Source: an uncultured virus (IMG/VR IMGVR_UViG_3300035510_000375) (taxonomy: Duplodnaviria; Heunggongvirae; Uroviricota; Caudoviricetes). From it: a stretch of 64,000 nt of DNA. The stretch lies in IMG/VR virus record IMGVR_UViG_3300035510_000375; one strand, written 5' to 3'. The translations under genes and the position numbers were made by a program. Below, one piece after another: positions 24,023 through 60,661 of the stretch; within the stretch, counting starts at the first letter, position 1, and each line of letters begins with the position of its first letter. Under the pieces are notes generated by a model that was not told the DNA's origin, did not search any database, and saw only the letters and a list, made by a program, of their open reading frames with translations.

Positions 24023-24533
24023 TATCCTTATCTCCTTTATCTATTTTAACAAATTGTTTATCTTCTGTTACTTGATAGACATTCTGATTGCGGCTGCCGC
24101 GCAACCACAAGGATAAATCTTTTTCCTCTTGAACAAATTGTCCATCAATTAAATAATTTATATTAGAAAAAATGCAATCTAAATCTTTATCTTTTTCCTT
24201 TTGCAATTCAGCTAAAGTATATCCAGTCCATACGAAGATTTTAATATGCGGATATGCCATTCGCACTGCAGATATTATATCTTTTACTGCAGCTCTATTC
24301 TCTGGGCAGAGAGGCTCCCCGCCTAGAACAGAGAAATTTCTTATGATACCATTTTCTCCTATTGCTTTAATAATATCCCATTTTATTTCTTCTGATTCAT
24401 AGCCACCATTAAAATCCCAAGTATCTTGATTAAAGCAACCCTTGCAGTGATGCGGACATCCTTGGGTAAAAAGAGATACACAAACTCCGATTCCATTTAC
24501 TACATCATTTTTAATTAGTCCTGCTATTCTCAT
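24015..24533 (-). CDS. nrdG: Anaerobic ribonucleotide reductase activating radical SAM protein
   Basis: GCPHHCKGCFN CxxxCxxC, LGGEPL, RGSRNQ; adjacent to nrdD. Confidence 0.95.
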   Translation of the reverse strand: MRIAGLIKNDVVNGIGVCVSLFTQGCPHHCKGCFNQDTWDFNGGYESEEIKWDIIKAIGENGIIRNFSVLGGEPLCPENRAAVKDIISAVRMAYPHIKIFVWTGYTLAELQKEKDKDLDCIFSNINYLIDGQFVQEEKDLSLWLRGSRNQNVYQVTEDKQFVKIDKGDKDNE

Positions 24534-25458
24534 ACTATTTCTTCTCCACCTAAATGAACGTATCGATCTTTAATTTCATTTGTTCTTCCATAGTTCCAAA
24601 AATGGGAGCCAATATATCCACACGTACGTCTTGCTACATTTAAAGTATTGTGATTGCGATTTCCGCAATTTGGGCAATACCATTCATTATTATCATCAAT
24701 AAGAATTTCTCCATCGAAACCACACTCTTGGCAATAATCTGATTTTGTATTTAATTCCGCATACATAATATTGTCATAAATAAACTGAATTACAGTTAAA
24801 ACTGCATTTATATTTTGTGTTAAATCTGCACATTCTATATAAGAAATTGCTCCGCCTGGACTGAGTTTTTGGAATTTTGCTTCTATTGATAATTTATCAA
24901 AAGGTGAAATCTTTTCAAAAACTGGGACATGGTAGCTATTAGTTATATAGTTTCTGTCTTTTCCATCGAGCTTAATAAAAACATCATCCCCAAATCTTTT
25001 CTTTAAGGACTGCGCAAATTTATATGTTGTAGATTCAATAGGAGAACCATATAAACTATAATCTATATCTTCCGCTTCTTTCCATTGATTACATTTATCA
25101 TTTAAAGCTTGCATAACTTCAAGTCCAAATTTCTCTCCTTCTGCACCATCAGTATGAGAATGACCTGTCATATATTTAACACACTCATATAACCCTGCAT
25201 AGCCTAAACTTGCAGTTGAATAGCCATGATGAATTAAATCAGTTAAACTTTCACCTTTATTTAGCCGTGCAAAGGCGCCATCCTGCCAAAGTATAGGTGC
25301 TACATCTGAAGTTACTTTTAATAATCTATCAATTCTTGCACGAAGTCCTTTGTGACATAATTCAGTTCTTTGTTCAAAGAGTTTCCAAAATGTGCGGAGG
25401 TTGCCTTTGGAACTTAAAGCTAGGTCTACAAGATTAATGGTAGTTACACCCATGTTAA
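24530..25458 (-). CDS. nrdD: Anaerobic ribonucleoside-triphosphate reductase, exon 2
   Basis: YITNSYH, CQECG..CPNCG, RRTCGYIG glycyl-radical motif; spliced product 736 aa. Confidence 0.9.
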
Positions 25459-26252
25459 CAATTTTAAATTAGACTATCTCTTCACTTTTATAAGTGTTGC
25501 GCGCTTCGAGTAGTGATAAAATCTACTCTACTGGGCTACATTCATCACCCATAGTCGTTACACCTTTCTTTATATCTAAGGATTTACATAAATAATAATC
25601 AATAATATCATATCTTTGTTTAAACCAATTTCTAGTAAACACCCTTTTAATGCCACCATTTTTACAAGAATGTTCACTATATGTTATAAACTCTTTTGCT
25701 GGACAAAAAGTAACAGTTTCTTTTTTTTCTTTGTCATAGACGGTTAAAATCCAAGTATTACCTATTCTATGATTATTATTTTGGCAATCTTTTATATTCT
25801 GTTGTTGAGTTCCTAAATATAAATTATCTATATTATTATTAAGACTATTGTCATCTTTATGCAAGACAAATAAATTATTATCTATTTGTCCTATCCATGT
25901 TTCATATACAATTTTATGAATAGGATAATGCTTTTGTCCATTTCCAAAATTAATATCAATATAATAGTATTGTTTATTGCCAATGTTTTTTATTAATGGT
26001 TTTAATATCTTTTGAGAAAAATCTGAATAAATTTTTCCGTCTTTGCTACAATAATATTTTGTATCTTTAAATTGTTTATATGTAATTCCTTGTATAGATA
26101 TTGTTTTCATATAAAAACTCCTTTTTAATTAGTTATTATATTTAAGACTTGGCACGGTATTGTCCTTTCGGCTTTCACCGTTAGCAAGCATATCGCTCAC
26201 ACCTTTTTTTCTTAAGTTCACGCAATTTTAAGTCGGCTTAACTTTCGGGTCA
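25459..26252 (-). mobile_element. Group I intron (IA-type) in nrdD, 794 nt, with HNH endonuclease
   Basis: 5' exon ends GGTCGGT pairing with GCCGAC (U-G); terminal G; GACTA...AAGAGATAGTC P7; splicing gives YGR-F-NMGVTTINL. Confidence 0.9.
25523..26110 (-). CDS. Intron-encoded HNH homing endonuclease
   Basis: IHKIVYETWIG..VLHKDDNSLNNNIDNLYLGTQQQN; 3' end overlaps intron core. Confidence 0.85.
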   Translation of the reverse strand: MKTISIQGITYKQFKDTKYYCSKDGKIYSDFSQKILKPLIKNIGNKQYYYIDINFGNGQKHYPIHKIVYETWIGQIDNNLFVLHKDDNSLNNNIDNLYLGTQQQNIKDCQNNNHRIGNTWILTVYDKEKKETVTFCPAKEFITYSEHSCKNGGIKRVFTRNWFKQRYDIIDYYLCKSLDIKKGVTTMGDECSPVE

Positions 26253-27534
26253 ACCGACCATAATATTTTCCTTTTGTAGGATCATAATTAAGAGCCTTGG
26301 CATAATTTTCCGTACAACGGTCTGGCGTAAGGAACGAACGACATCCCATGCATCCATAGACATCGCCCTGTCCGAAACGGTTAACCTTATATTCTCGCAT
26401 TTTCTTAGCTGAAATATAATCAGGAACCATTCTTTTTGCAGTGCATTGCGCTGCTAATTTAGTTAAATACCAATATTTAGAATTTTCTTTAATATTATTT
26501 TCATCTAATACATATAATAATTTAGGAAAAGCGGGAGTTACATACACACCTTTTTCATTTTTCATTCCTAAAATTCTTTGTTTTAAAAATTCTTCAATAA
26601 GAATAGCATTTTCTTTTTCGTATTCTGGGTTTTCACTAACCCACATTACAACAGAAAGAAAAGGAGCTTGTCCATTGGTTGTACTCATTGAATTAATTTG
26701 ATAATTAAAAGTTTGAACAGCATCTTTTACTTCTCTTGCCAAATCTTCGTCTGCAAATTGCTGAGACTGCTTATCCTCTAACCCACGAGTAAGATATTTA
26801 TTATAATGCTCTTTCCAGCTTGACCTTACGAAAGGAGCTAAATGTGCGAGCGTGATAGTAGAGCCACCATACTGTGAACTAGCCACCGCTGTTACGATTT
26901 GAGTAGCTACTGTAGTTGCAGTACCAATTCGATGCTGTGGATCTATTCTAACTCCATTAATTTTAGTACCATTTTGCAACATATCATCAAGATTTATTAG
27001 ACAGCAATTAGTTAAGGCGTTCTGTGCCATATAATCCATATCATGCTGATGAATTATACCTTGGTCATGTGCTTCACATACGTCTTGCGGTAATAAAAAT
27101 CTACGAGCAATATCTGTAGAAGCAATTCCCGCAATATAATCTCGTTGAGTTGTTACTACTTTTGCATCTTTATTAGAATTTTCTTCATTCCAATAAGTAC
27201 TCTGTCCGCTTAAATATTCTAGTAATGTATGGTCTGTTAAATTACCTCTTGCGCGAGTTCTTTCATTACGATAGGTAATATAGGCTCTCGCTACGTTTTT
27301 TCTTTTTGTTGCCATAAGACCTTTTTCAACGTAGTCTTGTATCTCTTCTACATTGAGAATATGATCTGCATTTTCAACTTGCTCTTGAATGAAATTAGCT
27401 ATATTACCGCTTTTAGTATAAGCATATTCATCAAGTTCCCCATCTACAGCTTTAAACGCAGCAAGCACCGCATTTATAATTTTATTTTGATTAAATTGCT
27501 GTAAAGAGCCATCTCTTTTTTTAATTACTATCAT
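26253..27534 (-). CDS. nrdD: Anaerobic ribonucleoside-triphosphate reductase, exon 1 (ATP cone)
   Basis: IKKRDG ATP-cone, ENSNKD, HDMDY..NCCL, GQAPF, MGCRSFL. Confidence 0.9.
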
Positions 27535-27900: not shown

Positions 27901-30434
27901 TTACTCTCCTTGTCCATATCTATTATGTTCTAATATCATTGTATCATTATTTACTTGTACAATTTTATACAATTGATGTGATTCAGTTTTTTGATAGGTT
28001 TTGGCTACAAATTGATTTTCTCTGCGGAAGCCCGTCACCATAATCTTGGTTCCACGCTTAAACCAACCTTCTTCTTTAACTTTTTTGCTACCATCCGCTT
28101 CTATTTCTGATATTCTGCGGTTATACATAGCATAATATTCTTTAGTAAAATTTACTGTTACTACACCACGAGTTGTTAAAATAGTTACTGATGATTTAGC
28201 ATCGTCTTTACTAATTATCGTACCTATGATTTTGTATAACTTATAAATAGGAATTTCTTTTCCATTTCTCTTAAAGAAATAATCAACTTGAGGATCTTCA
28301 GGTAGGTTAAAGAAATCTATCACTCCGTATCTATATGTATTAATATTTATTAATTCATGCTCGTGATAATAAAAACATAATGCTTCCATTTCCCATGCTG
28401 ATATAGTGCCTTCTGCGTACTTATCCCAAGATTCTTTAAATAAAAGATAATTAAACTCTTTAAGCACCGAATCTTGGTTATTTGTCAACCAAGCCCTGGC
28501 CGCATCCATTTCTTTCTGATATATCTTTTCCCAATTAGATTGTAAAATACAAGTATAACCATTAATTACTTGTAATAATTCCATATTAAAGAATTGAGAA
28601 TAAAATCTATCACAAGCTTCGTCAAATACATAATATTTTCCTACTTTTTTATTTTTCTTTAAGTAATCATTAAATATATATATTCGCTTTGTGAAAGTTA
28701 AATCTTCTGGCACTAAATTTCTTTGTATTAAACCATTAAAGTTTTGTAAAGTTAATTTTTTCTTAGGCTCACTAACTTTTAAAATATAATAAATCATAAT
28801 TAAAACTCTAGGTTCAATATTTAACTCTTTTGCCCATTGCTCCTCAAGGTTATCAAAGCTTCCCGCTTTAATAAGAGAAATCATAGCGGTTTTATTTAAT
28901 GGACAACGATTTAAAAAGTCAATAAAACTTTTATAAGGGCGGCCCGCAATAATTTTATTAATAACATCTGTATTAATACCACTTAATGCTTTTAAACCAA
29001 ACAAGATTTGATTATTCTCTACATCAGGTTCAAAACTAAAATTAGATTTATTAATATCTACTAAAGTTACTTTAATTCCTCTTGAAATAATATCCCCTAG
29101 TGCTTTTGCAGTTTTTGCATAGTCAGTAGTACCATTATCTTCTAAAGAACCACTATTGCTAATTAAACAAGCACAACTCCAAAAAATAATTGGATATTTA
29201 TATGCTAAATTCATCTCTTGTAAGGCTACTAAAGAATATGCAAGACAATGCGATCTATTAAAAGAATATCCACGCTGTACTTTAAGCAGTACATCCCACA
29301 CATAATGTGCCAATTTTTCTGAACAATTGTTCTTTTTAATGTTTTCATAAAATATATCTTCGCATTCTTGGAATAGCTTACCTTGCTTTTTTGCAATACC
29401 TTTTCTACATTTATCTGCAAAAGTTAAGGTATTTCCGCCTAATCTAGGTTCTTGGACTAATGACATTAGCCCCTCTTGTGACTCACAGATCCCGTCTGTA
29501 ATGGCAGAATGGCTAGATAACCAATCTATTTCTTCTTGACTTAATCCATAATTTCGCATTTCTTTTAACCACAAATTGATATTTTTACGATATTTAGACC
29601 AAGTTACCAAAGGGGTATCGCTATTCTTATCTGGCGCCATTAGTCTGATAACTGAATTTAAAACACTAAGGTCGTTAACACTTTTTGGCTTGGCTAAAGC
29701 TATACCTTGAATACCACTTTGCTGTTCCATCTGAAATAATGATAAAATTTTATGTTCCCACACCATTTTCCACATATCTTCAGATGTTCTATCTAATTTA
29801 TAAATACCTATAATTTTTTCGTATGTTTCACGTAAAGTAGCTTCTCTTGTTTCATATCCATAATTGCAAATTAAATCAAGACAGACATGAAGTTTATCCA
29901 TAGCCTCGACTGAGAGCGCATCATACTTGATAAGGCTCACGGCCTCTGCGTCATGAAGATCAAATTGAGTACAGATTGTACCATCCGGCGCTCGCATTAA
30001 TCCAGTAGATAAGGTAAAGGGTTCATCCACGAAGATAACACCACCCGCATGAATACCTGTTCCGCATATTAACCCTTCTATTTTTTGAGCTACTTGCCAC
30101 AGTTCTTGGTAATCTGTATCCATAGCTTGAACAAAGGCGGTAACTGGTTTAAAATCTTTTTCGGGATTACCATAATATACTTCTGATAAACTTCTTATTT
30201 GACCTCTATCTGCGGGAATGAGACTTGCTAAATACTGTGCCTCATCATTATCTATACCTAAGCCTCTTGCTGCAGTTAATATAGCAGATTTAGTTTTTTC
30301 TGTTCTAAAAGTAATTACATTTGATACTCTATCTTCACCATAAAATTCTCTAAATTTTGATAAAACTTGTGCTCTTTTACTACCTTCTATATCAAAATCA
30401 ATATCAAGAACAGATACACGTTCTGGGTTCAAAA
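27901..30434 (-). CDS. dnaE: DNA polymerase III alpha subunit, exon 2
   Basis: NPERVSVLDIDFD, GIHAGGV, LIKYDAL, FQME, YSFNRSH; spliced product 1287 aa. Confidence 0.9.
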
Positions 30435-31399
30435 CACTTTTTCCATTGTCACCAATGGAGCTGACTATCTCTTACTCTCCTTTATAAAATATTTCCAAAC
30501 CTAAATACTTTTTATTATTTTTAATCCTATTACATATTTCTTGCCTTACTATTGTAGGATTTATCATTTTTGTGTATTTATTTTTAATTAACCATTCAGC
30601 AGCTTCTCTTGTCGTTTCAAAATTATGTTTGTTATTTTCTTTATCTATTATAATTAATGGTTTTGATTGTTGCTGTCCTGGGGTAAATCGTTTAACTCCA
30701 TTTTCATTCAATATTCTATCTATAGTTGAATGATCACAGCCAATTTCTAATGCTACCTTCCGAGCAGATTTTAATCTCATATATTTTTTTATAATATCAT
30801 CTATATCCCAATTATATAATTGAGTAGCTCTTCCGCCCAAGGTGCTATTGTAACCATTAAAATAACTATCATAATATTCTATCCAATATTTTTCTCTTTC
30901 ATTTAAATATTCATTATCAATTTCTTCAATTTCTTCACATTTAAAGTTATTAATACCATATTTATTAAATGCTTTATATAAAATAATTTGAGAAAAGTAC
31001 TCTTTATTACTATTATTTTTATGTTGTTGAAATCTTTTTTTCAACTGTTTTAATAGTTTGCCCTATGTAAACTTTTTGGTTAATTAAATTTGTAATTTTA
31101 TAAATATGTCCCATTTATTTTCTCCTTTCGGTTTAAAAGAAAATAAAGGAGAGTCCTCGCGCTTCGAATAGTGATAAAATCTATTCTACTTCCTTACACT
31201 CATCAGGAATAGTCGATACACTCCTTACTTTCACTTGTTTTTCCAATGAAAAGTAAAAAAGCACGGTATTGAGTTTAATTAAAACTGTCCACCGTTAGCA
31301 AAATTAATTTTAATAATTTCACACCGCTTTTTCTTGCGTTCACGAGGTTTTTTGTAGGCATGTCACCATGCCTAGGAGACCTTTAAACCCTATGGGTTA
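30435..31399 (-). mobile_element. Group I intron in dnaE, 965 nt, with frameshifted GIY-YIG endonuclease in the P8 loop
   Basis: Exon TGGAGAT pairs with GTCTCC (U-G); terminal G; GACTA...AAGAGATAGTC; splicing gives WR-F-LNPER. Confidence 0.9.
30472..31114 (-). pseudogene. GIY-YIG homing endonuclease, disrupted by one extra A in an A7 run near 31035-31041
   Basis: RBS AAGGAG, ATG 31114 gives MGHIYKITNLINQKVYIGQT; continuation KRFQQH..EREKYWIEYYDS..GYNST is in the +1 frame. Confidence 0.8.
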
Positions 31400-32729
31400 A
31401 TCTCCAACTATAAGTTTTAGTTTCTTCTCTTAAAGGATTAATTTGTGTAATACCTAAACAATATAAAAGAATAAAACCTACACCTGAGCCTCTTCCTGGG
31501 CCTACTATAGAATTTGCTTCCCAACATAAATCTATAATCTTTTGAAGATTAAGATAATAGGCTGACCAATGTGCTTTATTTACGTTAGAAGATACCCAAG
31601 TCATTTGCAGATTGCTATTAATTTCATTATAAGCTTCTTGATTTTGTAAATCTTCATGTTTATTAATACCTACTATTATTGCTTTAACTAATTTTTTATC
31701 TCCGTCGAAAGAAGAATTATTAAAAGTTTCTAACATAGGAATTTTATCTATCCATTCTTGAGTTAAAGAAATATTACTATAATCATTCCATTTAAGACTA
31801 GGAATTTTTAAAGGTTTTAAAATAGAATAATCTTCACATAAATTTTGAATTTTTGTAATATTACTATAAGCCCTATCTAATTCCTCTCTTGTTAAATCTA
31901 AATGAGATTCTAATTCTTCTGTGTTCATTAAATAAGTTGTAGCATAAAATGAATCTACTTCTCTATCTCCATCTTGGGCATGAAGAAAAGCTTTATGAAT
32001 ATTTTTATCTTCTTTTTGTAAATAATGAGAATCTGTAGTAATAATATAATCTATATTTAATAAATTAGATATTTCTATTAATTTTCTATTTACATATGTT
32101 TGCTCTTTTGAAGCAGAAGGCTGTAATTCTAAATAAAAATAATCTTTCCCGCCAAAAGTGTTACATATTAATTGACACCAATTTAAGATTTTATTCCATA
32201 AATCTGTGTCTTGCTCTTGAGTATCTCTATATTTTAAAAGTTGAGTTGCAAGCATACCACCAAGGCAAGCGCTAGAACCAATAACATGGCCTGGCTTCTT
32301 TCCTATAATTTCTACTATATCTTGATAATAAGTAGGAACTCTTCTTAAGCCTCTACTCACATAACTTCTCATCCAAGCTCTAGTAGATAATTCACAAATT
32401 TGTTGATAGCCTTGCAAATCTTTAGCTAAAAGAATAAAATGATAATATTTATCTTCTCCCGCTACATAATTTTCATTATTTAAACCATCTCTACATAAAT
32501 AAATCTCATTACCCATTATAACTTTTAATGGAATATTTTTCTCTTTAATTTTATTATATATTTTTTCTACTCTCACTGCAGATGCTATAGTTTCATGGTC
32601 TGTAACTGCTATAACTGAATGATTTAATTCTATTGCTTTATTAATTAAATCTTCCTCTTTAATAATACAATCCCGAATCCTGAAATTCGACATCTGGGTA
32701 TGATTATGTAAACTACCTGGATAATTCAT
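31400..32729 (-). CDS. dnaE: DNA polymerase III alpha subunit, exon 1 (PHP domain)
   Basis: SLHNHT, AVTDH, GNEIY, HFILLAK, TTDSHY, GPGRGSG. Confidence 0.9.
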
Positions 32730-33393: not shown

Positions 33394-34583
33394 CTACCTC
33401 ACTAAAACAAGCTTCTCTGCGCTACGAGTTGCAGCTGTGTATAGCCACCGGGCGTGTTCAATTTTATCAAATGGAAAAGACTCTTCTATGACTAAAACTT
33501 TATCAAATTCGCTGCCTTGTGCTTTATGAGCCGTAATCGCATACCCATACGCAAACTGCCTAGGTATGATATCCCCTATTTTATTTCTTAATTTACCAAG
33601 AGCATAAGATTCTCTCCAATCAAGACAAGGTTCTCCAGTTTGTATCATTTTTTTATCCATGTCAACAGAATGAAAAGTTGTTCCATCTTCTGTAATAAAC
33701 TCTCCACAAATTATATTCATGCGATGATTTTTCATTTTTATATATTGTGGAGCCATAGTATAGGTTTCAAAAGGATTTTGAATAATACCTGTTGTTCCAT
33801 TTACTAGTGCAGATTCTCCATCTTCAGATAAATCTTCCCAATAATTAGATAAGCAAATCATGCGTTCGCCCGTTTGCGGCAGCCCGCTATAACCAAGCAG
33901 TTCGCGCATTTGATCATTTAATGCTCTTCTTTTGCTATTAGTAGCGCAAATAATTTGATCTGCCCAAGTCATATGCCCAGTAACTAATTCACTAGGAGGA
34001 ATCACTAAAATATCTTTCCCTTGAAAATAGTCTATGACTTCACCTTCACGTATTTTCATAGTAAGTTGAATAATTTCAGATTCTGCAGCTTGGCGCATAA
34101 TCTCAGATAGGAATACATGAGGCTTGTCTAGTAGATGATTATCATCCTTTTTAGAGATCGGGCCTAGCTGAAATGGATCGCCTAAGAAAATTACATAAAC
34201 ATTGTAACTCAATAATAAATCTATCATTTCAGTAGGAACCATTGATACCTCATCTACAACAACAATAGTAAAGTCCAATGAAACTTTAGGTTTGCGATAG
34301 AAACCTCCATCCGGGCGAGGGAAACTATCATACAATAATTTATGTAAAGTCATAGCATTTGGATTACCCTTTTTGCGTAATACTTCTGCTGCTTTACCTG
34401 TATATGTTGCATAAGCTACTTTTCTTTCTTCTACATCCAATGCCTCAATGATAAAACGAACTAGAGTTGATTTCCCGGTTCCTGCTTTTAGGCATAGCCA
34501 GAGATAACAGTAAACTTTTTATTGTTTCTGTATCTGGCTATAGCAATTTTCAAACCTTCTTCTTGTTTTTTAGTCAATTTCAT
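33394..34583 (-). CDS. RecD/Dda-like SF1B helicase, interrupted by an 8-nt insertion at 34486-34493
   Basis: RBS AGGAGG, ATG 34583 MKLTKKQEEG..ISGYA then TAA; removing 8 nt restores GYAGTGKST; downstream VDEVSM, GDPFQL, RQA, AITAHKAQGSE, LYTAATR. Confidence 0.85.
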
Positions 34584-34724
34584 CAGGTTCTACTTCCTCC
34601 TTTTCTTTTTTTCTATAAATATTATATCACAAAATTATATAAAAATCAAATAAGTAAAAATGGGTTTGAAAAAATCCAAACCCCTATTTTGAATCTGAAT
34701 GTCGGATGTTTACCCTCCAAGCAG

Positions 34725-38980: not shown

Positions 38981-40099
38981 CGTTTAATCCTTACATTTCT
39001 ATAAGGAACTGACTATCTCTTAAAGTTATAAAATTTTTTATAACTTAAAACCTATTTCGGTTCTCATGCACTTCGTTTCCTAAAATGCAGACGCATCTCA
39101 GCTAGCGTCCCTACTCCCCAGCTTGTTTCAGACTTTGGGGATAGTCGATACATGGCTCAATCCATTTTTTGATTGACTTTTTATAAATTGGCAAATTTTT
39201 ATATGATTCTCCATAAATTATAGCTTTTATAGCAGAATTGGTAGCAATGTGATTATATTGCGGATAAAGTTGATTTGGAGTTTGACCTTCTGCATACTTT
39301 TTTCTTATTTCCATAACTTGCTCATCAGTAAATTTAGCTTTTTTATTTTTTGAGCCTTTTATTCCAACTGACATAATTCTTATTGGATATGACTCATTTT
39401 CTTCGGACCAAATTTTACCTTGATTAATCATTGATAAAGTAGACTTTGAAACAAAAGGAAATTTATCATTTATTTCGGTTAGGGTTAAATCAGTTTCTTT
39501 TAAAAGTTTTTTTATTTCATTAACTTCTTTTTGATTAAGTTTTGCTTGGCTGTGATTTTCTCCTTTTAATGCAAAACTTTCTTGTCCGCCCAAACCTATA
39601 TTATAGCCTTTTTCTTTATTTGTTGAATTATAATAATGAATCCAAAATCTTTCTTTATCATCTAACTCTTCTTTTAAGCACTCTTCTAAAATACTTAAAG
39701 AAAAATTACTTATACCATATTTCTGCATTGCTAAGTGTATTGGAGTATTAATATCTCTTTTATTTTTTAAAGAATATTTTTCAGGCTGTCCAGATCTTAA
39801 ATGCTCTGAATATCTTCTTTCAATATTAATACTTTGTCCCACGTAAACTTTACCATTTACATTATTTGTTATTAAATAAATTCCAATCATATTTTTCTCC
39901 TTATTATGACAATGCAAAATATCATAATAAATCGAATGGATTGCATCACACGGGATTCTCATGGTAAATTGCATTTAGTTATTTACTGTACAATATACTT
40001 TAAAGTTCCCCGTTAGCATTTAATAAACTTTGTCCAAAAATTTATTAAATACCCCTAGTGAGTTCTAGGATAAGGTTTTATTGGCAGTTACTTTTTCCT
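38981..40099 (-). mobile_element. Group I intron in dnaB, 1119 nt, with intact GIY-YIG endonuclease
   Basis: TGGT|AG pairs with CTGCCA (U-G); terminal G; GACTA...AAGAGATAGTC; splicing gives STQLNG-SWKEEKIPDQNLLRG. Confidence 0.88.
39111..39890 (-). CDS. Intron-encoded GIY-YIG homing endonuclease (259 aa)
   Basis: RBS AAGGAG, MIGIYLITNNVNGKVYVGQS..RYSEH..ERFWI..GYN; C-terminal HTH repeats. Confidence 0.88.
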   Translation of the reverse strand: MIGIYLITNNVNGKVYVGQSINIERRYSEHLRSGQPEKYSLKNKRDINTPIHLAMQKYGISNFSLSILEECLKEELDDKERFWIHYYNSTNKEKGYNIGLGGQESFALKGENHSQAKLNQKEVNEIKKLLKETDLTLTEINDKFPFVSKSTLSMINQGKIWSEENESYPIRIMSVGIKGSKNKKAKFTDEQVMEIRKKYAEGQTPNQLYPQYNHIATNSAIKAIIYGESYKNLPIYKKSIKKWIEPCIDYPQSLKQAGE

Positions 40100-41293
40100 A
40101 CCATTTAACTGCGTAGAAGAGAGAATAAACACTCCATAATCATTAGCTAAATCTTTAAGTCTAACACTAATTAAAAATAAAATATTATCCTCGCGGAGAC
40201 CGGATACCTTTGATTTGGAGGATATTTCTGAAAGAATTTTCATACTTGTGTGCAGATAATCCAAACACAAGTAACGCACACCATGCTCATGAATCCCACG
40301 TTTTAATGTATTCTCAATATCTTGCAAAGAAAAATCATGTAACTCTTGAATATAAATGGGAGATTTTTGCAAGATATTAGAAGCTTTTACCACGCGCTCC
40401 CATTCTCCTTCATAATATTCTCCCGTCAAAATATGCTCTTCATCTACATCTGATATAAAAGCTATCATCATAGTTTGAATTTCATTTATCTCTTGTTCTG
40501 TTGTAATATATAAAGTAGGTTCTTTAGAACCATTCTCTACCCATTTATGTTCTTTATAATCATATAACTCACTGCAGGCAAAGTTACACGCGTCCGCTAT
40601 CATTGCTCTCGTTTTGCCGAGGCCCGAGGGGGCCGAACGTAGGTAGAACTTTTTTAACCGAGCCCCGCGCGTGATAGTATTAATAAGAGGACCAAACATT
40701 GGATATCCATACTCTGGATTCTTTTTAAAAGATTCTATTAACTCTAATACATTTTCACCAGCTTGCGCAGATTGTTCATTATAATCATCTGCATATTTCA
40801 TTTTAATAGCAGATATCTTAGAATCTATGGTTTCCGCAATCTGTTCTAATGAAGTATTATCTAGCCATTCTTCTTGAGTTTGCTTCTTTTTAGTATCTAA
40901 AATGTTATCATTATCATACAACCAAGAGAGGTCTAAACCTATTTTTTGATACATTCTAAATAAAGTCATTTTCTTCATTCGACTATAATAATAATCAAAA
41001 GTAGCTAATTGAGTAACTTCCGCAAGTTTATTTAAATATTCAGTTCCTTTGTTCGCTTTATAAATTGCCATCTTTTTTGGGCGTTGCTCTAAGTAATCTT
41101 CTATTGTGCTAATAGTAATTTCTTTAGCCCCAAGATTATGTAAATTATAAATAGAACCAAAAATAATTTTATGAAACTCTTGCGGAAAATCTTCTTCATA
41201 AAAATTATATTTTTCATTATCCAATAGTAAAGGATTAAGAAAAATTGAGCCTATTACATTTATTATTGCTGTTGTATCTATATATTTAGACAT
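40100..41293 (-). CDS. dnaB: Replicative helicase, exon 1
   Basis: SAPSGLGKT Walker A, ITTEQ, CLDYLH, STQLN. Confidence 0.88.
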
Positions 41294-44428: not shown

Positions 44429-45103
44429 TTATGTAGCTTTTTTAGGTTTTCTACCACAACTCTTAGCCTCAGAACAATAGCCAAATAATTCACATTTAGG
44501 TTTAAACTCTTGTTCAATAATTACTTTCCATTCATCAGAATATTCTTTTAATGCGTTGATTATATCATTCATTAATTGACGAAATTCCCAATAGGCTCTT
44601 GAACAAAGTCTTTGGTGAGACATATCTATCAACTGGCGGAGGTTAGTTCTAATCACAACATCTGTTGTCATACCAAGAGGCAAAAGATTTGCTACATCCT
44701 CCCTAGGTATACCAATACTATTAAGTAAAACACTAGAGCGCTGGATTTGCTCCATGCAATCTTGATAAATTTCTTTTGCTTCATCATTATTCTCAATAGA
44801 AGATGGAATGATATAATCAAAAGCACTATAATCAAGATATCTTGTGCTTGCTTGTAGTCTAGTAGGTGCTCCGCCTATGTGTGTATACAATTCGCGGATA
44901 ACCCTTGTGGAATATCCTTTTAAAATTAAATACACTTGCGGGAACTCGCTTACGCGCCCATGACCGCTTTCTAAACAGCTAAGTCCGCGCTTGTAATTTT
45001 TATCTTTATCTGAACTATCTGCGCCCCAACAAACTCCCGCTTCTTTTCCCATTAATTGGAGAGGATGTCTTGTTGTGTCTACTTGTATAATTACTTTTCC
45101 CAT
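44429..45103 (-). CDS. thyX: Flavin-dependent thymidylate synthase
   Basis: GHGRVSEF, RELYTH..QASTRY, EDVANLLP, NLRQL..RLCSRAYWEFR. Confidence 0.85.
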   Translation of the reverse strand: MGKVIIQVDTTRHPLQLMGKEAGVCWGADSSDKDKNYKRGLSCLESGHGRVSEFPQVYLILKGYSTRVIRELYTHIGGAPTRLQASTRYLDYSAFDYIIPSSIENNDEAKEIYQDCMEQIQRSSVLLNSIGIPREDVANLLPLGMTTDVVIRTNLRQLIDMSHQRLCSRAYWEFRQLMNDIINALKEYSDEWKVIIEQEFKPKCELFGYCSEAKSCGRKPKKAT

Positions 45104-45104: not shown

Positions 45105-46064
45105 TTATTTATTCCCTATAGTTGAATTATAGCCAAAATTATAACTATCATACAACCCAATATAATATTTTTCTTTTTCATTTAATTGCTCTCTTGGGCA
45201 CTCTTCTAATAGCTCCCAAGAAAAAGACCATAAACCATACTCTTGCATGGCTTTATATAGTTTATTATTTGCGGGGGTATCGATGCCCAATCCGCACTTA
45301 GCATGGTCTGTCCACCTAGACGCGGTATTCGTTGCCTGACCGATGTAGCACTCGCCCGTCTCAACATTGGTTATTTTATAGATGCCAGTCTTTTCATTAG
45401 TACCTAGTACATTTGCACATAAAGCTTTAAGTGGCTTTTGAAACCATGTCTGCCATATTAACATACTAAGAACTCTAGGCTTAGATAACGTTTTTTTAAC
45501 TTGTTCTAGCCTTTGTATATCTAATTTATCAACATCAGATATTTGTAAACAATAGAAAGAAAGATTATCTTGAATTTCCTTCTCGCGGATGCGGGCTTGA
45601 ATGCTCGCTGCTAACGTATCTTTTATCTTTTGTAATTCTTGATTAGTTTGCGCATATTCTAAATTTAATTTATTTATTTTATTATTATATGCAATTTCAG
45701 CATTTTCATATTCCGTTTCTAAATTCTCAAAGTATTTTTCACTAGCTAAAGAAGTAGTTTGTTTATATTGCTCAAACTGTACAGTAACTTTATCTTTTTC
45801 AGCGGTATATAATTGTTGTACTTTTGCTAAATCTTCTTTTTCTATCTGTTCATAAAGATGTTTATCTTGCTCAAATTTTTCAACTAATTGTTGGTGTTCT
45901 TTTTTAATATGCTCACAATTTTGTTGTGTTAATTTATATTGGTTATCTAAATATTCTTGTTCTTTATATTTAGTAACTTTTATCTGATTTGCATTAATAT
46001 AATATTTAATTCCTATAATTAAACAAATTAATGCAAATATAAAAAAAATTATTTCAAAAATCAT
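45105..46064 (-). CDS. Membrane-anchored coiled-coil protein with C-terminal GIY-YIG domain
   Basis: N-terminal TM; TGIYKITNVETGECYIGQA..RW..EKEKYYI..GYN. Confidence 0.75.
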   Translation of the reverse strand: MIFEIIFFIFALICLIIGIKYYINANQIKVTKYKEQEYLDNQYKLTQQNCEHIKKEHQQLVEKFEQDKHLYEQIEKEDLAKVQQLYTAEKDKVTVQFEQYKQTTSLASEKYFENLETEYENAEIAYNNKINKLNLEYAQTNQELQKIKDTLAASIQARIREKEIQDNLSFYCLQISDVDKLDIQRLEQVKKTLSKPRVLSMLIWQTWFQKPLKALCANVLGTNEKTGIYKITNVETGECYIGQATNTASRWTDHAKCGLGIDTPANNKLYKAMQEYGLWSFSWELLEECPREQLNEKEKYYIGLYDSYNFGYNSTIGNK

Positions 46065-48834: not shown

Positions 48835-50724
48835 TTATAGTTTAACTACTGAGTTAATTTTTCCTTTTAACATAATATTACCTAAACTTACTCTATTTAG
48901 TAAAGGAATATCGTTAGCAGAAATGCATATAGAACCTGGCTTACCAACCAATAAAATATTATCATCTTTATCTATCATTGCGGCGCCCGCAATTTCTCCA
49001 GTAGAGTTAGAAGTCTTATATACAATTACACCTTTTCCACTCCTACCCTGATATGGTATCTCTTCAAGAGAAACTTTCTTACCTAAACCACTAGTGGTGA
49101 AAATAGCTAAATTATCAGAATATTTATGAATAGGTAATCCTATAACTACTTCATCATCCGCTTCTAATTTAATTGCTTTTACTCCTGATGTAACTCTACC
49201 TATTGCTGCTATATCTTTTGTGCTAAAATGAATTGACATACCTTTTTTAGTAACTATCACGACTTCTTCTTCATCCATAAACAAAACATTAGCTAATGAA
49301 TCATTATCTTTAAATTTAATTGCGGCGGTGCCCTTTCCGCGCTTTACCTTCATATATTCTTCTAACAAAGTCTTTTTAATTAAACCTTGTTTTGTGAAGA
49401 AAACTACATATTGAGGTTTGCTCTTTCTATGTAATGAAGTCATGGCTACCACTTTTTCATTATCTTCTAAGCTAATTAAACTACTTATTCTAATACCTTT
49501 TGAAGTATTAGTTCCAGTAGGTATATCATCTACAAGTAATTTATACATTTTACCAGTATTAGTAAAGAACATCAAAGTATCAATAGTATTAGTAGAGATG
49601 CTCTCTAAGACAGCACTTTCTTCTGTCTTTATACCTTTACCATTTCTGCGCTGAACTTTAAAACTAGATGCGGGAATGCGCTTAATCTCCCCGGTCTGAG
49701 TTAGGATAACTACAACATCTTCTGCAACTACAGTTTCAATTTCTTTATCTTCTGTATCTTCTTCAACTGTAATAATTTTAGTTCTATGCTCATCTCCATA
49801 TTTCTTAGCAACTTCTCTCCAGCCTTTAATAAGTTCATTATTAAGAAGTTCTTCGCTATTTAATATAGTTTCAATCTCTTTTGCTTTATTCTCTAATTCA
49901 TTTTTTTCATCTTCAAGTTTCTTTACTTCTAAGTGAGCTAAGCGAGATAATTTCATATCTAATACAGCTTTTGCCTGCAATTCATCTAATAAAAATTTAG
50001 ATTGTAATTTAATACTTGCATCTGCTGTCGAGTTAGAGGATTTAATTTCTTGAATAACCTCTTCTATTGAAGCTAAACAAATTAATAAACCATCTATAAT
50101 ATGTATTCTACTTTCAATTTTATCTAGATCAAATTTAAAGCCATTAATATAAACACTTTTTTCATGATCAATGTGTGCCTGTAAAATTTCTTTCCAACCA
50201 AATACTTTTGGAAATCTACCTTGATCAAGCATTGTCATATTGATACTAAAATGATATTGTAAAGAGGTATTTTTATATAATGATTTAATCACTCTATCAG
50301 GATTAATCCCTTTTTTAAGATAAATTTTAATCAATACCTTTTCGCCAGTTAAATCGTTAAACCTATCAACACCAGGATTATTCTCTTCATCATCAAGAAG
50401 AGCCTCTAATTGCTTACATATAGTATTTGTATATACTCCATAAGGAATTTCATTTACTATTAAACAATTTTCTTTATTACTATAATCTATTTTTGCTCTT
50501 AACTTACAAGACGCCCCAACAGCATTATTATCTTTTGCGTTTACTTTTGAACCATATTTTAAAGCTTCTTTGACTTCATTTTCATTAATTAAATAAGCTC
50601 CTGTAGCAAAATCTGGCGGACAATAAATTTCTTCAAAATCTGCATTAGGATTTAATAATAGTACTTCTAGTGCTTTATTAACATCCTTAATATTAAACTG
50701 AGGGAGGCTACTAGATGCGCCAAC
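48835..50724 (-). CDS. gyrA: DNA gyrase subunit A, exon 3
   Basis: PDFATG, EIPY, LDMKLSRL, GyrA-box QRRNGKG and beta-pinwheel repeats; spliced product 799 aa. Confidence 0.88.
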   Translation of the reverse strand, partial: VGASSSLPQFNIKDVNKALEVLLLNPNADFEEIYCPPDFATGAYLINENEVKEALKYGSKVNAKDNNAVGASCKLRAKIDYSNKENCLIVNEIPYGVYTNTICKQLEALLDDEENNPGVDRFNDLTGEKVLIKIYLKKGINPDRVIKSLYKNTSLQYHFSINMTMLDQGRFPKVFGWKEILQAHIDHEKSVYINGFKFDLDKIESRIHIIDGLLICLASIEEVIQEIKSSNSTADASIKLQSKFLLDELQAKAVLDMKLSRLAHLEVKKLEDEKNELENKAKEIETILNSEELLNNELIKGWREVAKKYGDEHRTKIITVEEDTEDKEIETVVAEDVVVILTQTGEIKRIPASSFKVQRRNGKGIKTEESAVLESISTNTIDTLMFFTNTGKMYKLLVDDIPTGTNTSKGIRISSLISLEDNEKVVAMTSLHRKSKPQYVVFFTKQGLIKKTLLEEYMKVKRGKGTAAIKFKDNDSLANVLFMDEEEVVIVTKKGMSIHFSTKDIAAIGRVTSGVKAIKLEADDEVVIGLPIHKYSDNLAIFTTSGLGKKVSLEEIPYQGRSGKGVIVYKTSNSTGEIAGAAMIDKDDNILLVGKPGSICISANDIPLLNRVSLGNIMLKGKINSVVKL

Positions 50725-51284
50725 CGTAGCGCTCTTATGTTTCCATAAGCACTGACTATATCTTAATTGTCTTATGACAACGATTACCATTTCGAACTAT
50801 GTACCAATAATAGTCCTACTCCTCCGCTCCGAGGATAGTCGATACAGGCTACAATTACTTGGAGACTTTTCTTTTTGGATAAAAATTTCTGATAGGATAT
50901 GTTTCATTTTCTTTTCTATATCTTCACATTTAGAATAGTATTTATGTAAAGCTGCATAGCAAGCTGTATTATCTTCTTTTCTAAAATGCTCTGATATTCT
51001 ACGTCTTATATTTATTGCTCTTCCAATATAAATTTTATTATTAGGAAAATTAATTTTATAAATACCAGAAATATGTTGCGGAATTTCATTATACTTCATA
51101 AAAGTCTCCTTTCATTGTTTCCCACGGGATTACCATTTAATATTTTACATTATAATATTAAATTATAAATGAGGCATTATTCTATTTTGCCCTAAAAAAT
51201 ATTAGGCAGGCTTCCCCGTTACCCATACTTTATATATGAGCCTTGTGGTGAACAAGAAAGGTAATAACACAGGCATTATTACAT
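50725..51284 (-). mobile_element. Group I intron 2 in gyrA, 560 nt, with truncated GIY-YIG
   Basis: GGT|AT pairs with ATGCC; terminal G; GACTA...AAGATATAGTC; splicing gives NGTQGIG-VGASSSLP. Confidence 0.88.
50797..51099 (-). pseudogene. Truncated GIY-YIG endonuclease (N-terminal fragment only)
   Basis: SGIYKINFPNNKIYIGRA..RRISEH, then runs into intron core; no catalytic E/GYN segment or DNA-binding domain. Confidence 0.75.
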
Positions 51285-51572
51285 ACCAATACCCTGAGTT
51301 CCATTAACGATGTTGTAAAAACCTTTAGACGGAAGAACTGATGGATACTTTTCAGTATCATCATAATTATCTCTCCACTCTTCTACAGTATTCTTATCTA
51401 TATCTTCAAATAATTTAAGTGAAAAATTGCTTAATCTTGAAGAAGAATAACGAGGCGCTGCCCAATTACCAGTTTCCATTAAGTTTCCGCCATTACCTTC
51501 TATTTCAATCAGCGGATACCGCATAGCAAATGGTTGACCCGATCTCATTATAACGCCTTCTGCACTTGCGTC
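51285..51572 (-). CDS. gyrA: DNA gyrase subunit A, exon 2 (catalytic Tyr)
   Basis: QPFAMRYPLI..GN.G..AAPRYSSSRL; PSVLP. Confidence 0.88.
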
Positions 51573-51847
51573 CAATAATTATTAACCATAGGCTTTTTAT
51601 CCTATGCTCTGGAGCTTTCGCTCATTTTCATCAAATAGTCTTTTCTATTTCAGTTTAGCATATCTTTTCATCTTTATTAGATGTCGCGGCCTCGTGGAGG
51701 GATTATATCTTTTCACCCTCTATGCGTTGCCCCTGACTATAGTTTCTATAGCCTTCGGTTCGGATTAGCATATCATTTCTGATTTAGCCTTCCCGCTTAA
51801 TTCCGCGATTTTAACACGGCAACTAAAAATTAATTTTTTACTACTCT
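51573..51847 (-). mobile_element. Group I intron 1 in gyrA, 275 nt, ORF-less
   Basis: CACGGT pairs with GCCGTG; terminal G; P7 GCATA...AAGATATGC; splicing gives YIHG-DAS. Confidence 0.88.
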
Positions 51848-52069: not shown

Positions 52070-52138
52070 ATTTTTCTCCTAATTATTTTTCTTTATTATA
52101 ATTATAATATTATTTTTAATTAAAATCAAATAAAATTT

Positions 52139-58085: not shown

Positions 58086-58087
58086 AT

Positions 58088-60655: not shown

Positions 60656-60661
60656 AAGTCT

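What the first reader, a model, noticed from the sequence alone, without database searches (positions are those of the whole stretch)
34470..34510. 8-nt stop-containing insertion in the helicase Walker A codons: possible programmed ribosomal hop
Seen (- strand): GGC TAT GCC TAA AA GCA GGA ACC GGG AAA TCA. Skipping 8 nt gives a perfect GYAGTGKST. The insert is flanked by two Ala codons (take-off GCC, landing GCA) with TAA directly after take-off, and the stop sits in the loop of a possible hairpin (UCUGG..UGC-CUAAAA-GCA..CCGGG). The rest of the ~393-aa gene, its RBS and its promoter are intact. Known: T4 gene 60 bypassing uses matched take-off/landing codons, a stop and a hairpin, and short bypassed inserts have been proposed in Streptomyces phages. 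Alternatives are a scar from a lost intron/intein, a micro-intron removed with help from the phage RNA ligase, a recent inactivating mutation or an assembly error.
Basis: partly seen in the sequence, partly recalled or inferred. Interest (0 to 1): 0.72.

Follow-up and report, generated by a model that had tools for sequence, protein, structure and literature searches.

The report
Ribosome-hop cassette in phage helicase gene
This uncultured gut phage's Dda-like helicase gene is broken in its ATP-binding loop by eight bases that start with a stop codon, and dozens of related phages carry 5- to 10-base versions at the same spot behind a conserved RNA hairpin, so ribosomes most likely hop over the gap, a very rare way of reading a gene.

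Summary
On the - strand, GGC TAT GCC is followed by TAAAAGCA (34490-34483) and then GGA ACC GGG AAA TCA. Skipping the 8 nt gives GYA|GTGKST and a 393-aa SF1 helicase.

It is neither an error nor unique. Contigs from three sequencing runs bridge the insert without a gap. In two insert-agnostic samples of relatives, 16 of 70 (viral contigs) and 24 of 102 (metagenome contigs) distinct alleles are interrupted at this site. In 39 of these 40 the interruption sits at the same codon boundary; in L383 it is one codon later. The inserts are 5, 6, 7, 8 or 10 nt long, so all three frame classes occur. Each starts with an in-frame stop directly after the last decoded codon.

Further points:
- In 31 of 32 distinct inserts of 6 nt or more, the last three bases are GCN or one transition away from it.
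- Interrupted alleles, and only they, carry an 8-9 bp stem whose 3' arm ends at the take-off codon, with three compensatory pair types.
- Both coding halves are under purifying selection.

Best reading (0.75): programmed translational bypass. Peptidyl-tRNA-Ala leaves GCY when a stop codon sits in the A site and re-pairs 5-10 nt downstream, helped by a 5' "driver" hairpin.

The insert travels with its roughly 130-150 nt N-terminal module by recombination. My four literature searches found no report of it. This scan has noted similar stop-led gaps in other phage genes on other DNA. No experiment has been done.

The parts
34621..34649 (-). Promoter-like site of the helicase gene (TTGATT, 17 nt spacer, TG-extended TATAAT)
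   Evidence: 10 of 12 consensus matches. This is a consensus match only, not evidence of function.
34596..34600 (-). Shine-Dalgarno GGAGG, 12 nt before the ATG
   Evidence: read directly from the sequence
34491..34583 (-). ORF part 1: 31 codons (MKLT...VISGYA), ending with the take-off codon
   Evidence: dN/dS among interrupted alleles is 0.23 in this frame against 0.91 and 1.23 in the other two frames.
34533..34541 (-). 5' arm of the conserved stem (AUAGCCAGA; codons I-A-R)
   Evidence: It pairs with 34502-34494 over 9 bp in the window.
34503..34532 (-). 30-nt loop of the stem-loop (10 codons)
   Evidence: The loop length is constant, but its sequence diverges as in any coding DNA.
34494..34502 (-). 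3' arm of the conserved stem (UCUGGCUAU; codons S-G-Y), ending directly at the take-off codon
   Evidence: 87.3% of cells paired in 62 distinct interrupted alleles, against 21-53% in slid controls. Uninterrupted alleles reach 50.7%.
34491..34493 (-). Take-off codon GCC (Ala31)
   Evidence: Take-off is GCY in 16 of 16 interrupted alleles of the insert-agnostic viral sample, against 23 of 54 uninterrupted alleles.
34483..34490 (-). 8-nt coding gap TAAAAGCA: in-frame stop TAA (34490-34488), spacer AA, landing triplet GCA (34485-34483)
33394..34482 (-). ORF part 2: resume codon GGA, Walker A GTGKST (34482-34465), 362 codons, stop at 33396-33394
   Evidence: Codon-aligned dN/dS among 24 interrupted alleles is 0.31.

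Best explanation
The 8 nt are a programmed translational bypass (a 'stop-hop') inside the P-loop codons of the phage's Dda/RecD-like helicase gene.

Proposed course (inferred):
1. The ribosome translates 31 codons and melts the 9-bp stem as it passes.
2. With GCC (Ala31) in the P site, UAA enters the A site and decoding stalls.
3. The 5' arm is by then about 40 nt upstream and outside the ribosome. The 3' arm lies at -9 to -1 from the P-site codon, inside the exit path.
4. Re-zipping of the stem drags the mRNA out of the ribosome, and peptidyl-tRNA-Ala lets go of GCC.
5. The ribosome slides 3', and the anticodon re-pairs with the first GCN-like triplet (GCA, +8).
6. GGA is decoded next, giving ...SGYA-GTGKST... 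and a 393-aa helicase.
7. Ribosomes that do not hop release a 31-aa peptide, so the gap also lowers helicase output.

Shown here: the anatomy, its recurrence, the matched codons, the stem and its covariation, and selection on both halves. Inferred: that the event is translational, and that the hairpin is the driver.

The cassette (RBS to gap, about 130-150 nt) moves between helicase genes by recombination. Its benefit is unknown. My guess is that it protects the conserved P-loop DNA from a homing endonuclease, as the T4 gene 60 insert does against MobA.
For: 1. Recurrence at one site. 

2. Gap lengths. The gaps are 5, 6, 7, 8 or 10 nt (26, 13, 15, 20 and 1 of 75 distinct contexts). All three frame classes occur, so no single frameshift or readthrough fits. 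Skipping the gap restores the identical GYAG[TSV]GK[ST] register in every case.

3. Stop codon. All 40 interrupted alleles of the two insert-agnostic samples have a stop codon directly after the last decoded codon. Across all contexts the stops are TAA 61, TGA 12 and TAG 2.

4. Landing triplets. Among 32 distinct inserts of 6 nt or more they are GCN 18, GTW 7, ACN 6 and TCC 1. The 5-nt inserts give ACY (4 of the 5 distinct inserts) or GAT (1).

5. L383. Here the event is shifted by one codon and keeps the rule with another tRNA: take-off GGC, UAG, landing GGU.

6. Stem, counted with a script. The stem abuts the take-off codon. Pairs formed are 7.7 of 9 in interrupted against 4.6 of 9 in uninterrupted viral alleles. 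In the metagenome sample they are 8.17 against 4.67.

7. Stem, counted on alignments. 87.3% of cells are paired, against 21-53% in slid controls. Three pairs show compensatory changes (G-C/A-U twice, A-U/C-G), 11 cells, reached by 0 of 500 shuffles. Uninterrupted alleles reach 50.7%, about the level of the best slid controls (26-49%).

8. Linkage of stem and gap. Probing with the two arms alone, 38 of 38 distinct family hits carry a stop-led insert.

9. Selection. dN/dS is 0.23 for the N-terminal part and 0.31 for the C-terminal part among interrupted alleles.

10. Stop context. The base after the stop is U in 1 of 37 distinct inserts, although T is 36% of the window. This fits selection against efficient termination; the link between that context and termination is recalled, not tested here.

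11. Solved relatives. 9kwf_B and D. radiodurans RecD2 (3e1s), whose alignments were printed, have the contiguous G-x-x-G-x-G-K-[ST] with no extra residues. T4 Dda (3upu) is also a hit over query residues 2-146, alignment not printed.

12. The DNA is real: contigs of three runs bridge the gap.
Against: 1. No protein, ribosome-profiling or reporter data exist, so the hop is inferred from sequence alone.

2. Landing is not always cognate. ACN, GTW, GAT and TCC triplets pair with only two of three anticodon positions.

3. One insert (TAACGCC) holds an ACG triplet before its GCC. It could catch the tRNA out of frame.

4. Covariation in the stem is modest: 3 of 9 pairs, and 13 of 500 shuffles reach that number of pairs. 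RNAalifold on its own gave only a weak consensus (-0.92 kcal/mol), because the loop is 30 nt long.

5. While the take-off codon is in the P site the 3' arm is inside the ribosome. The 'driver' role rests on analogy with the gene 60 5' stem-loop model, of which I read passages (10.1101/2024.12.09.627546).

6. The libraries that hold the window are labelled RNA, yet only contigs could be laid. An insert-less RNA form could therefore not be excluded.

7. Codon-bias tests were not corrected for shared ancestry.
Confidence: 0.75

Rival explanations
1. Removal at the RNA level: the hairpin guides an endonuclease that cuts out the 5-10 nt, and the phage's RNA ligase / polynucleotide kinase module reseals the mRNA (a micro-intron).
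For: The window encodes an RNA ligase (59453-60655), a polynucleotide-kinase-like protein (57564-58085), phosphoesterases and a Thg1-like enzyme. A conserved hairpin abuts the insert. In the window's minimum-energy fold part of the gap is a 7-nt bulge between two helices.
Against: It gives no reason for the obligatory in-frame stop right after the last codon (40 of 40 in the insert-agnostic samples), or for GCN-like triplets at the 3' end of the gap. The helix 3' of the bulge shows no support: 3.32 of 5 pairs against 3.31 in shuffles. No such short-insert excision is known in bacteria or phages (recalled). Contigs from RNA-labelled libraries keep the insert; this is weak evidence, because DNA may be present in those libraries.
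Confidence: 0.07
2. Ordinary recoding that differs with insert length: -1 or +2 shift for 5 and 8 nt, readthrough or a +3 skip for 6 nt, +1 shift for 7 and 10 nt. The result would be a helicase with 1-3 extra residues in the P-loop, the GCN being read as Ala.
For: For several lengths the product would still fit [AG]xxxxGK[ST], with Ala in first place (for example A-K-A-G-T-G-K-S for 7- and 8-nt inserts); this was worked out by hand. A stop in the A site is a known trigger of shifts.
Against: It needs three or four different mechanisms at one site. There is no slippery heptamer at the site. tRNA-Ala cannot re-pair at -1, +1 or +2 on these sequences. The P-loop length would vary among close relatives, whereas 54 of 54 and 78 of 78 uninterrupted alleles, and the solved homologues whose alignments were printed, have one fixed length. 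ACN, GTW and TCC triplets in place of GCN would change the residue.
Confidence: 0.08
3. The gene is switched off or split. Only the 31-aa peptide and/or an N-terminally truncated protein (for example from TTG 34440) is made, and the insert matters only at the DNA level, for instance to spoil an endonuclease site.
For: A stop-containing frameshift normally kills a gene. The phage also has a DnaB-like helicase (40088-41293). The window is full of homing endonucleases.
Against: There is purifying selection on both halves. The Walker A codons right after the gap are kept in all interrupted alleles, though a truncated product would lack them. A stem and matched codons are maintained in 75 distinct contexts. 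About 23% of alleles in two samples carry the gap.
Confidence: 0.05
4. Sequencing or assembly artefact.
For: None beyond the prior that small indels are common errors.
Against: Contigs of three runs from three studies bridge the site, one of them a variant strain with 3 differences. Related inserts occur in 147 loci of three collections.
Confidence: 0.01

Closest known systems
Phage T4 gene 60 programmed bypass (50-nt coding gap) and its homologues in the MobA element
   Same: Two out-of-frame pieces give one protein. Take-off and landing codons match. A stop codon lies directly 3' of take-off. A stem-loop lies 5' of take-off. The insert sits in a conserved enzyme motif of a replication protein. 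Close relatives with and without the insert show a clean break in identity at the site. Passages were read in 10.1101/2024.12.09.627546 and 10.1101/2022.08.31.505936; my data are.
   Different: The gap is 5-10 nt rather than 50, and there is no room for an A-site or take-off stem-loop inside it. The 5' stem ends 0 nt from take-off, against 9 nt in gene 60. The tRNA is Ala rather than Gly. The gene is a helicase, not a topoisomerase. No endonuclease gene is physically linked: flanks of alleles that share the cassette are unrelated. There is no sequence homology to the gene 60 cassette.
[quoted passage not shown] 2023, PMC10732093; passages read)
   Same: Short gaps in a phage ATPase gene. A slow-to-decode A-site codon starts the gap. 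[quoted passage not shown] Frameshifting is argued against because the junction is conserved.
   Different: There the trigger is the rare sense codon UUA, tied to host tRNA supply; here it is a stop codon. That case rests on 3 genes; here there are 75 distinct contexts with gaps of variable length. The host range and the gene differ.
Synthetic 'stop-hops' in E. coli (Weiss et al. 1987, as cited in PMC10732093 and PMC5009743; the original was not read)
   Same: Peptidyl-tRNA leaves its codon when a stop is in the A site and re-pairs with a similar codon a few nt downstream (+5, +6, 9 nt for one residue).
   Different: Those are low-level events in constructs without stimulators. The 2016 review (PMC5009743, passages read) says that no natural in-frame stop hop is known. 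Here the sites are natural and conserved, and carry a dedicated hairpin.
Bypass elements ('byps') in Magnusiomyces capitatus mitochondria (mentioned in PMC10732093 and PMC5009743; details recalled)
   Same: Many short, mobile, untranslated inserts are bypassed using matched codons.
   Different: Those are 27-55 nt (recalled) in mitochondrial genes of a yeast. They are GC-rich, unlike the AU-rich gaps here, and lie at many sites rather than one.
prfB (RF2) +1 frameshift
   Same: A stop codon in the A site, plus an upstream mRNA element close to the P site, pushes the ribosome forward.
   Different: That is a single-nucleotide shift onto an overlapping codon. The upstream element is a Shine-Dalgarno pairing with 16S rRNA, not an intramolecular hairpin (recalled).

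Membership tests
Programmed translational bypassing (hopping) | One protein is encoded by two ORF pieces separated by untranslated nucleotides | tested here: met
   Uninterrupted relatives and the solved homologues whose alignments were printed have the two parts contiguous. The window's parts are 31 + 362 codons.
Programmed translational bypassing (hopping) | Take-off and landing codons can be read by the same peptidyl-tRNA | tested here: met
   The window has GCC then GCA. Among 32 distinct inserts of 6 nt or more the landing triplets are GCN 18, GTW 7, ACN 6 and TCC 1. L383 uses GGC then GGU.
Programmed translational bypassing (hopping) | A slow-to-decode codon (a stop) lies in the A site at take-off | tested here: met
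   40 of 40 interrupted alleles in the two insert-agnostic samples. Overall TAA 61, TGA 12, TAG 2.
Programmed translational bypassing (hopping) | A stimulatory mRNA structure is present | tested here: met
   An 8-9 bp stem specific to interrupted alleles, with compensatory changes. Its function as a stimulator was not tested.
Programmed translational bypassing (hopping) | A nascent-peptide signal is present (as in gene 60) | tested here: inconclusive
   The N-terminal peptide is conserved in interrupted and uninterrupted alleles alike. The one distinguishing residue (Ala at -16, 35 of 39 against 4 of 43) is explained by the stem's GCC codon.
Programmed translational bypassing (hopping) | A single polypeptide spanning the gap has been shown | not testable with these tools
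   This needs mass spectrometry or a reporter assay.
T4 gene 60 / MobA mobile cassette | Homologous bypass cassette linked to a MobA-type endonuclease in a topoisomerase gene | tested here: not met
   The gene is different and no endonuclease gene is adjacent: the neighbours are RecJ-like upstream and small unknown ORFs downstream. Flanks of alleles that share the cassette are unrelated.
SF1 Dda/RecD-like helicase | AAA_30 / UvrD_C_2 domains and Walker A GxxGxGK[ST] | tested here: met
   Pfam 3.1e-18 and 4.9e-16. PHROG 325 Dda-like helicase, 1.2e-74. Walker A is complete only if the 8 nt are skipped.
-1 / +1 programmed ribosomal frameshift | Slippery site that allows re-pairing on an overlapping codon, with one fixed shift | tested here: not met
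   There is no slippery heptamer at GCC UAA. The only A-rich run (T AAA AAG, 34521-34515) would give a non-homologous peptide. Insert lengths fall in all three frame classes.
Intein or self-splicing intron | Hint domains, or a ribozyme fold of hundreds of nucleotides | tested here: not met
   The insert is 8 nt. Rfam gave 0 hits in the window at gathering scores. A true intein (LAGLIDADG_3, 8.3e-16) is present 12 nt downstream in relative L001, not in the window.

The most novel reading that the evidence does not exclude
Uncultured gut and rumen phages carry a whole class of miniature, horizontally exchanged 'hop cassettes'. Each has a driver hairpin that ends at the take-off codon, a stop codon, and a 5-10 nt gap ending in a matching codon. 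They are placed in the most conserved catalytic-motif DNA of essential genes. There they spoil the target of inteins or homing endonucleases without changing the protein.

If so, this helicase family (about 23% of alleles) would be the best-sampled natural model of minimal translational bypass. Translational hopping would be a common anti-endonuclease immunity rather than a T4 oddity.
Probability: 0.25. Interest if true: 0.92.

Novelty: new variant of a known kind. Interest (0 to 1): 0.85.

Why it matters
Programmed bypassing has rested for decades mainly on T4 gene 60, with yeast mitochondrial byps and one weakly tested Streptomyces phage case beside it. The 2016 review I consulted (PMC5009743) states that no natural stop hop is known.

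This family offers dozens of natural variants of one minimal site:
- gaps of 5 to 10 nt;
- three different stop codons;
- cognate and near-cognate landing triplets;
- one allele that uses a different tRNA;
- a stem with natural compensatory mutants.

That amounts to a ready-made mutational series. It can test how far a peptidyl-tRNA can slide, what selects the landing site, and whether refolding of mRNA behind the ribosome drives forward movement.

There is also a practical side. Gene callers split or truncate these helicase genes, so annotation pipelines for metagenomic phages miss an essential replication protein in about a quarter of this family.

If the link to homing endonucleases holds, it would explain why such gaps sit in catalytic motifs.

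Tried and rejected
1. Whole genome: none is held for this window, so I could not search the rest of the phage for tRNA-Ala, release-factor genes or further gaps.

2. Cultured phages: megablast found nothing. tblastn found only relatives under 40% identity, such as PBS1/AR9 and Enterococcus phages. No isolate is known to carry the cassette.

3. tRNA genes in the window: none.

4. Reads: only Logan contigs of four RNA-labelled runs could be laid. They show the insert but cannot show whether an insert-less RNA exists. X3 does not bridge the site.

5. Its 3' half lies in the ACN GGN codons, whose third bases vary among relatives.

6. A second helix 3' of the gap, which makes the gap a bulge in the window's fold, has no support in relatives.

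7. RNAalifold alone gave a weak consensus. The stem was therefore tested by explicit pair counts.

8. A generic scan of the window for other 'stop plus matching codon plus long open frame' sites was swamped by chance hits in this AT-rich DNA. It allows no conclusion about other hops.

9. The genome-contig scan gave 6 family hits, all on MAG-binned contigs with mixed taxonomic labels, and 4 chance hits. No reliable host follows from it.

10. Relatives of the L001 intein: only the locus itself and one weak hit. Whether intein and gap exclude each other could not be tested.

11. Rfam gave no hit in the window, so the split genes nearby could not be assigned to known intron families.

12. A nascent-peptide signal was considered. 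The only distinguishing residue is explained by the stem.

13. Four literature searches and passages of four papers found no helicase case. Supplements were not opened.
Full report
**1. What is in the window**

On the - strand a gene starts at ATG 34583. It follows a GGAGG at 34600-34596 and a promoter-like site at 34649-34621. Frame 0 reads 31 codons, MKLT...FTVISGYA, and meets TAA at 34490-34488. A second frame is open from there to 33397 and begins (A)GTGKSTLV.

Leaving out the eight bases TAAAAGCA (34490-34483) joins GYA to GTGKST. That gives a 393-aa protein. Pfam finds AAA_30 and UvrD_C_2. PHROGs calls it a Dda-like helicase at 1.2e-74.

Solved relatives confirm the expected P-loop. In 9kwf_B and D. 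radiodurans RecD2 (3e1s), whose alignments were printed, the beta-strand and G-x-x-G-x-G-K-[ST] align without extra residues. T4 Dda (3upu) is a further hit over the same N-terminal region.

**2. It is real DNA**

Logan contigs of runs X1, X2 and X4 come from three studies. X4 is a variant with three differences. All cross 34483-34490 with no gap. These were contigs, not raw reads, and X1 may be the source of the window.

**3. It is not unique: the same site is interrupted in many relatives**

A protein-guided scan of viral contigs returned 38 loci. Reading their DNA showed inserts at the same codon boundary in L008 (TAAACT), L013-L017 (TAACT) and L023 (TAAAAGTT). A pattern built on this found 58 loci, all in this helicase family.

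That pattern forced GGC, GCY and TAA, so I repeated the survey with patterns blind to the insert. One was anchored on the upstream E-G-L-K codons and the downstream P-loop, with a free spacer.

| Sample | Distinct family alleles | Uninterrupted | Interrupted |
|---|---|---|---|
| Viral contigs (protein-guided plus blind pattern) | 70 | 54 | 16 |
| Metagenome contigs (blind pattern) | 102 | 78 | 24 |

In the metagenome scan, 9 of 111 distinct stretches were other proteins and were dropped.

Over everything fetched there are 75 distinct interrupted contexts in 147 loci, with 37 distinct insert sequences. The family filter in that script missed at least the two 'EEALK' alleles, L048 and L075, which are listed.

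**4. Anatomy of the inserts**

- Lengths: 5 nt (26 contexts), 6 (13), 7 (15), 8 (20) and 10 (1). All three frame classes occur.
- Stop codon: every interrupted allele of the two blind samples (40 of 40) has a stop codon directly after the last decoded codon. Overall the stops are TAA 61, TGA 12 and TAG 2.
- TAG is rare for a reason: many of these phages read TAG as a sense codon. All 41 in-frame stops inside the C-terminal parts are TAG, at positions where relatives have Gln.
- Take-off codon: GCC or GCT in 16 of 16 interrupted alleles of the blind viral sample, against 23 of 54 uninterrupted ones (not corrected for ancestry).
- Landing triplet: the last three bases of the gap, where a hopping tRNA would have to sit so that GGN is read next. 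Among 32 distinct inserts of 6 nt or more they are GCN 18, GTW 7, ACN 6 and TCC 1. In 5-nt gaps, where the triplet overlaps the stop, they are ACY or GAT.
- Base after the stop: U in only 1 of 37 distinct inserts.
- L383 carries the event one codon later and obeys the same rule with another tRNA: GGC (Gly), UAG, landing GGU.

**5. A hairpin that goes with the gap**

Interrupted alleles have Ala at position -16 (35 of 39 distinct peptides), where uninterrupted ones have E, K, Q or D (A in 4 of 43). They also prefer GGC and TAC for the Gly and Tyr codons before take-off.

Both facts have one cause. Codons -17 to -15 (RUAGCCAGA) are complementary to codons -4 to -2 (KCUGGCUAY). This forms an 8-9 bp stem with a 30-nt loop, and its 3' arm ends at the take-off codon. 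In the window 34541-34533 pairs with 34502-34494 over nine base pairs.

| Measure | Interrupted | Uninterrupted |
|---|---|---|
| Pairs formed of 9, viral set | 7.7 | 4.6 |
| Pairs formed of 9, metagenome set | 8.17 (all 24 have at least 7) | 4.67 (9 of 78 have at least 7) |
| Cells paired on named structure | 87.3% (62 distinct alleles) | 50.7% |
| Same structure, partner slid 1-3 columns | 21-53% | 26-49% |

Three pairs show compensatory double changes: G-C to A-U at the outer pair in 8 alleles, G-C to A-U in L310, and A-U to C-G in L085 and L349. That makes 11 cells, a value reached by 0 of 500 shuffles. The count of three pairs is reached by 13 of 500 shuffles.

Three alleles (L008, L046 and L077) have the 5' arm shifted by 6 nt. 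Probing viral contigs with the two arms alone, 38 of 38 distinct family hits carry a stop-led gap and none is uninterrupted.

The loop sequence diverges as freely as in uninterrupted alleles. The arms are therefore held by selection, not by recency. The window's 97-nt region folds at -24.7 kcal/mol, z = -2.95.

**6. Both halves are translated**

Among interrupted alleles dN/dS is 0.23 for the N-terminal codons outside the stem. In the other two frames it is 0.91 and 1.23. For the codon-aligned C-terminal part of 24 alleles it is 0.31 (dS is saturated, so this is an upper estimate).

**7. Evolutionary behaviour**

On a FastTree tree of 87 C-terminal parts, presence of the gap needs at least 21 changes, 12 of them forced by well-supported branches.

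Near-identical C-terminal parts can differ in gap status, and then the whole N-terminal module differs:

| Pair type (C-terminal identity 0.9 or more) | N-terminal identity |
|---|---|
| One allele interrupted, one not (n = 4; C-terminal identity 0.93) | 0.72 |
| Both uninterrupted | 0.95 |
| Both interrupted | 0.99 |

These figures are; examples are.

Conversely, L083 and L044 share 94% identity only from about -150 to the gap, with unrelated flanks on both sides. So the gap travels with its hairpin-bearing module, roughly from the RBS to the gap, by recombination. The breakpoint lies at the P-loop.

L001 is 95% identical to the window downstream of the P-loop. It has a different N-terminal module, no gap, and an intein with a LAGLIDADG endonuclease inserted 12 nt downstream of the gap site. 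The window itself holds at least five homing-endonuclease genes and several split genes.

**8. How it most likely works**

A single mechanism fits all lengths and yields the same protein in every allele. Peptidyl-tRNA-Ala leaves GCY while a stop occupies the A site. The ribosome slides 5-10 nt. The anticodon re-pairs with the first GCN-like triplet, and GGN is decoded.

The hairpin's place suggests its role. At take-off its 3' arm lies inside the ribosome's exit path and its 5' arm is free. Re-zipping would pull mRNA out of the ribosome by about the length of the gap. This is the 'driver' role proposed for mRNA pairing behind the ribosome in gene 60 (passages of 10.1101/2024.12.09.627546).

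RNAalifold also pairs the GC of the take-off codon with an upstream GC. If real, that would let the stem compete with the anticodon. However, those bases are Ala codons in all alleles, so this is not discriminating. These mechanistic steps are inference.

**9. Rivals**

- RNA-level excision is possible in principle, because the window has an RNA ligase and kinase module. It explains neither the stop nor the GCN-like triplets, and no helix 3' of the gap is conserved.
- Length-specific frameshifts or readthrough would need several mechanisms at one site and a P-loop of variable length.
- A dead or split gene is contradicted by selection and by the maintained signals.
- An artefact is excluded.

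**10. Comparison with what is known**

The logic is that of T4 gene 60: matched codons, an adjacent stop, a 5' stem-loop, an insert in a conserved motif, and clean identity breaks between alleles with and without it. The differences are a gap a fifth to a tenth as long, no structure inside the gap, another tRNA, another gene, and no linked endonuclease gene.

It resembles the phiHau3 terminase proposal in gap size (PMC10732093) but is triggered by a stop rather than a rare sense codon. It is the natural counterpart of the synthetic stop-hops of 1987. The 2016 review says no natural stop hop is known (PMC5009743).

Four full-text searches found no report of this helicase case. I read passages only and opened no supplements.

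The scan's own notebook holds unverified notes of similar stop-led gaps behind hairpins in other phage genes on other DNA: SNF2 and UvsW helicases, a terminase and a polymerase. There are none for this family or this window. I did not test those notes.

**11. Verdict**

It remains without experimental proof. It is a new, short-gap, hairpin-assisted variant of programmed translational bypassing, widespread in a family of uncultured gut and rumen phages.

Noticed in passing
L001:425-2692 (+): A relative whose helicase is 95% identical to the window downstream of the P-loop has no gap. Instead it has an intein of about 361 aa with a LAGLIDADG endonuclease domain, inserted after the Lys of GK[ST], 12 nt downstream of the gap site. 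Its N-terminal module differs from the window's.
   Followed up: partly
window 24530-27534 (-): The anaerobic ribonucleotide reductase NrdD is in two ORFs (26218-27534 and 24530-25453), with an HNH endonuclease gene (25523-26110) between them.
   Followed up: no
window 27901-32729 (-): DNA polymerase III alpha is in two ORFs (31383-32729 and 27901-30432), with a GIY-YIG-like homing endonuclease ORF (30472-31044) between them. The endonuclease ORF ends GAG TAA GAG and is in frame with the downstream polymerase part, which is possibly chance. Rfam found no intron here.
   Followed up: partly
window 48835-54630 (-): Both topoisomerase II genes are fragmented. The large subunit is in two ORFs (53389-54630 and 52139-52726). 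The GyrA-like subunit is in at least three (51830-52069, 51279-51575 and 48835-50790), with a GIY-YIG-motif ORF (50797-51099) between pieces. The large-subunit split lies near the place of the T4 gene 39/60 split (profile positions 445/452 of 661).
   Followed up: no
window 39111-39974 and 45105-46064 (-): There are two further GIY-YIG-type homing endonuclease matches. In the second ORF only the C-terminal 95 or so residues match, and it sits next to a thymidylate synthase fragment (44429-45103).
   Followed up: no
window 57044-62717 (-): An RNA repair set: phosphoesterase, polynucleotide-kinase-like protein, RNA ligase (59453-60655), metallophosphoesterase and a Thg1-like tRNA-His guanylyltransferase (61848-62717).
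   Followed up: no
many related loci, e.g. L036, L042, L050, L055, L094: Relatives have in-frame TAG codons where others have Gln. All 41 in-frame stops in the helicase C-terminal parts are TAG, so many phages of this group appear to read TAG as Gln. The window itself shows no in-frame TAG in this gene.
   Followed up: partly
L383:204-300 (+): One allele has the gap one codon later: GCA GGC TAGGT ACA. Take-off is at Gly GGC, the stop is TAG and the landing triplet is GGT. The hairpin then ends 3 nt before take-off.
   Followed up: partly
L219, L221-L225 (genome contigs): Six gap-bearing alleles lie on 23-175 kb contigs binned into MAGs labelled Mollicutes, Endomicrobiaceae, Anaeroplasmatales, Clostridia, Bacilli and Clostridium. 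These are probably phage contigs swept into bins, so they are no reliable clue to the host.
   Followed up: no
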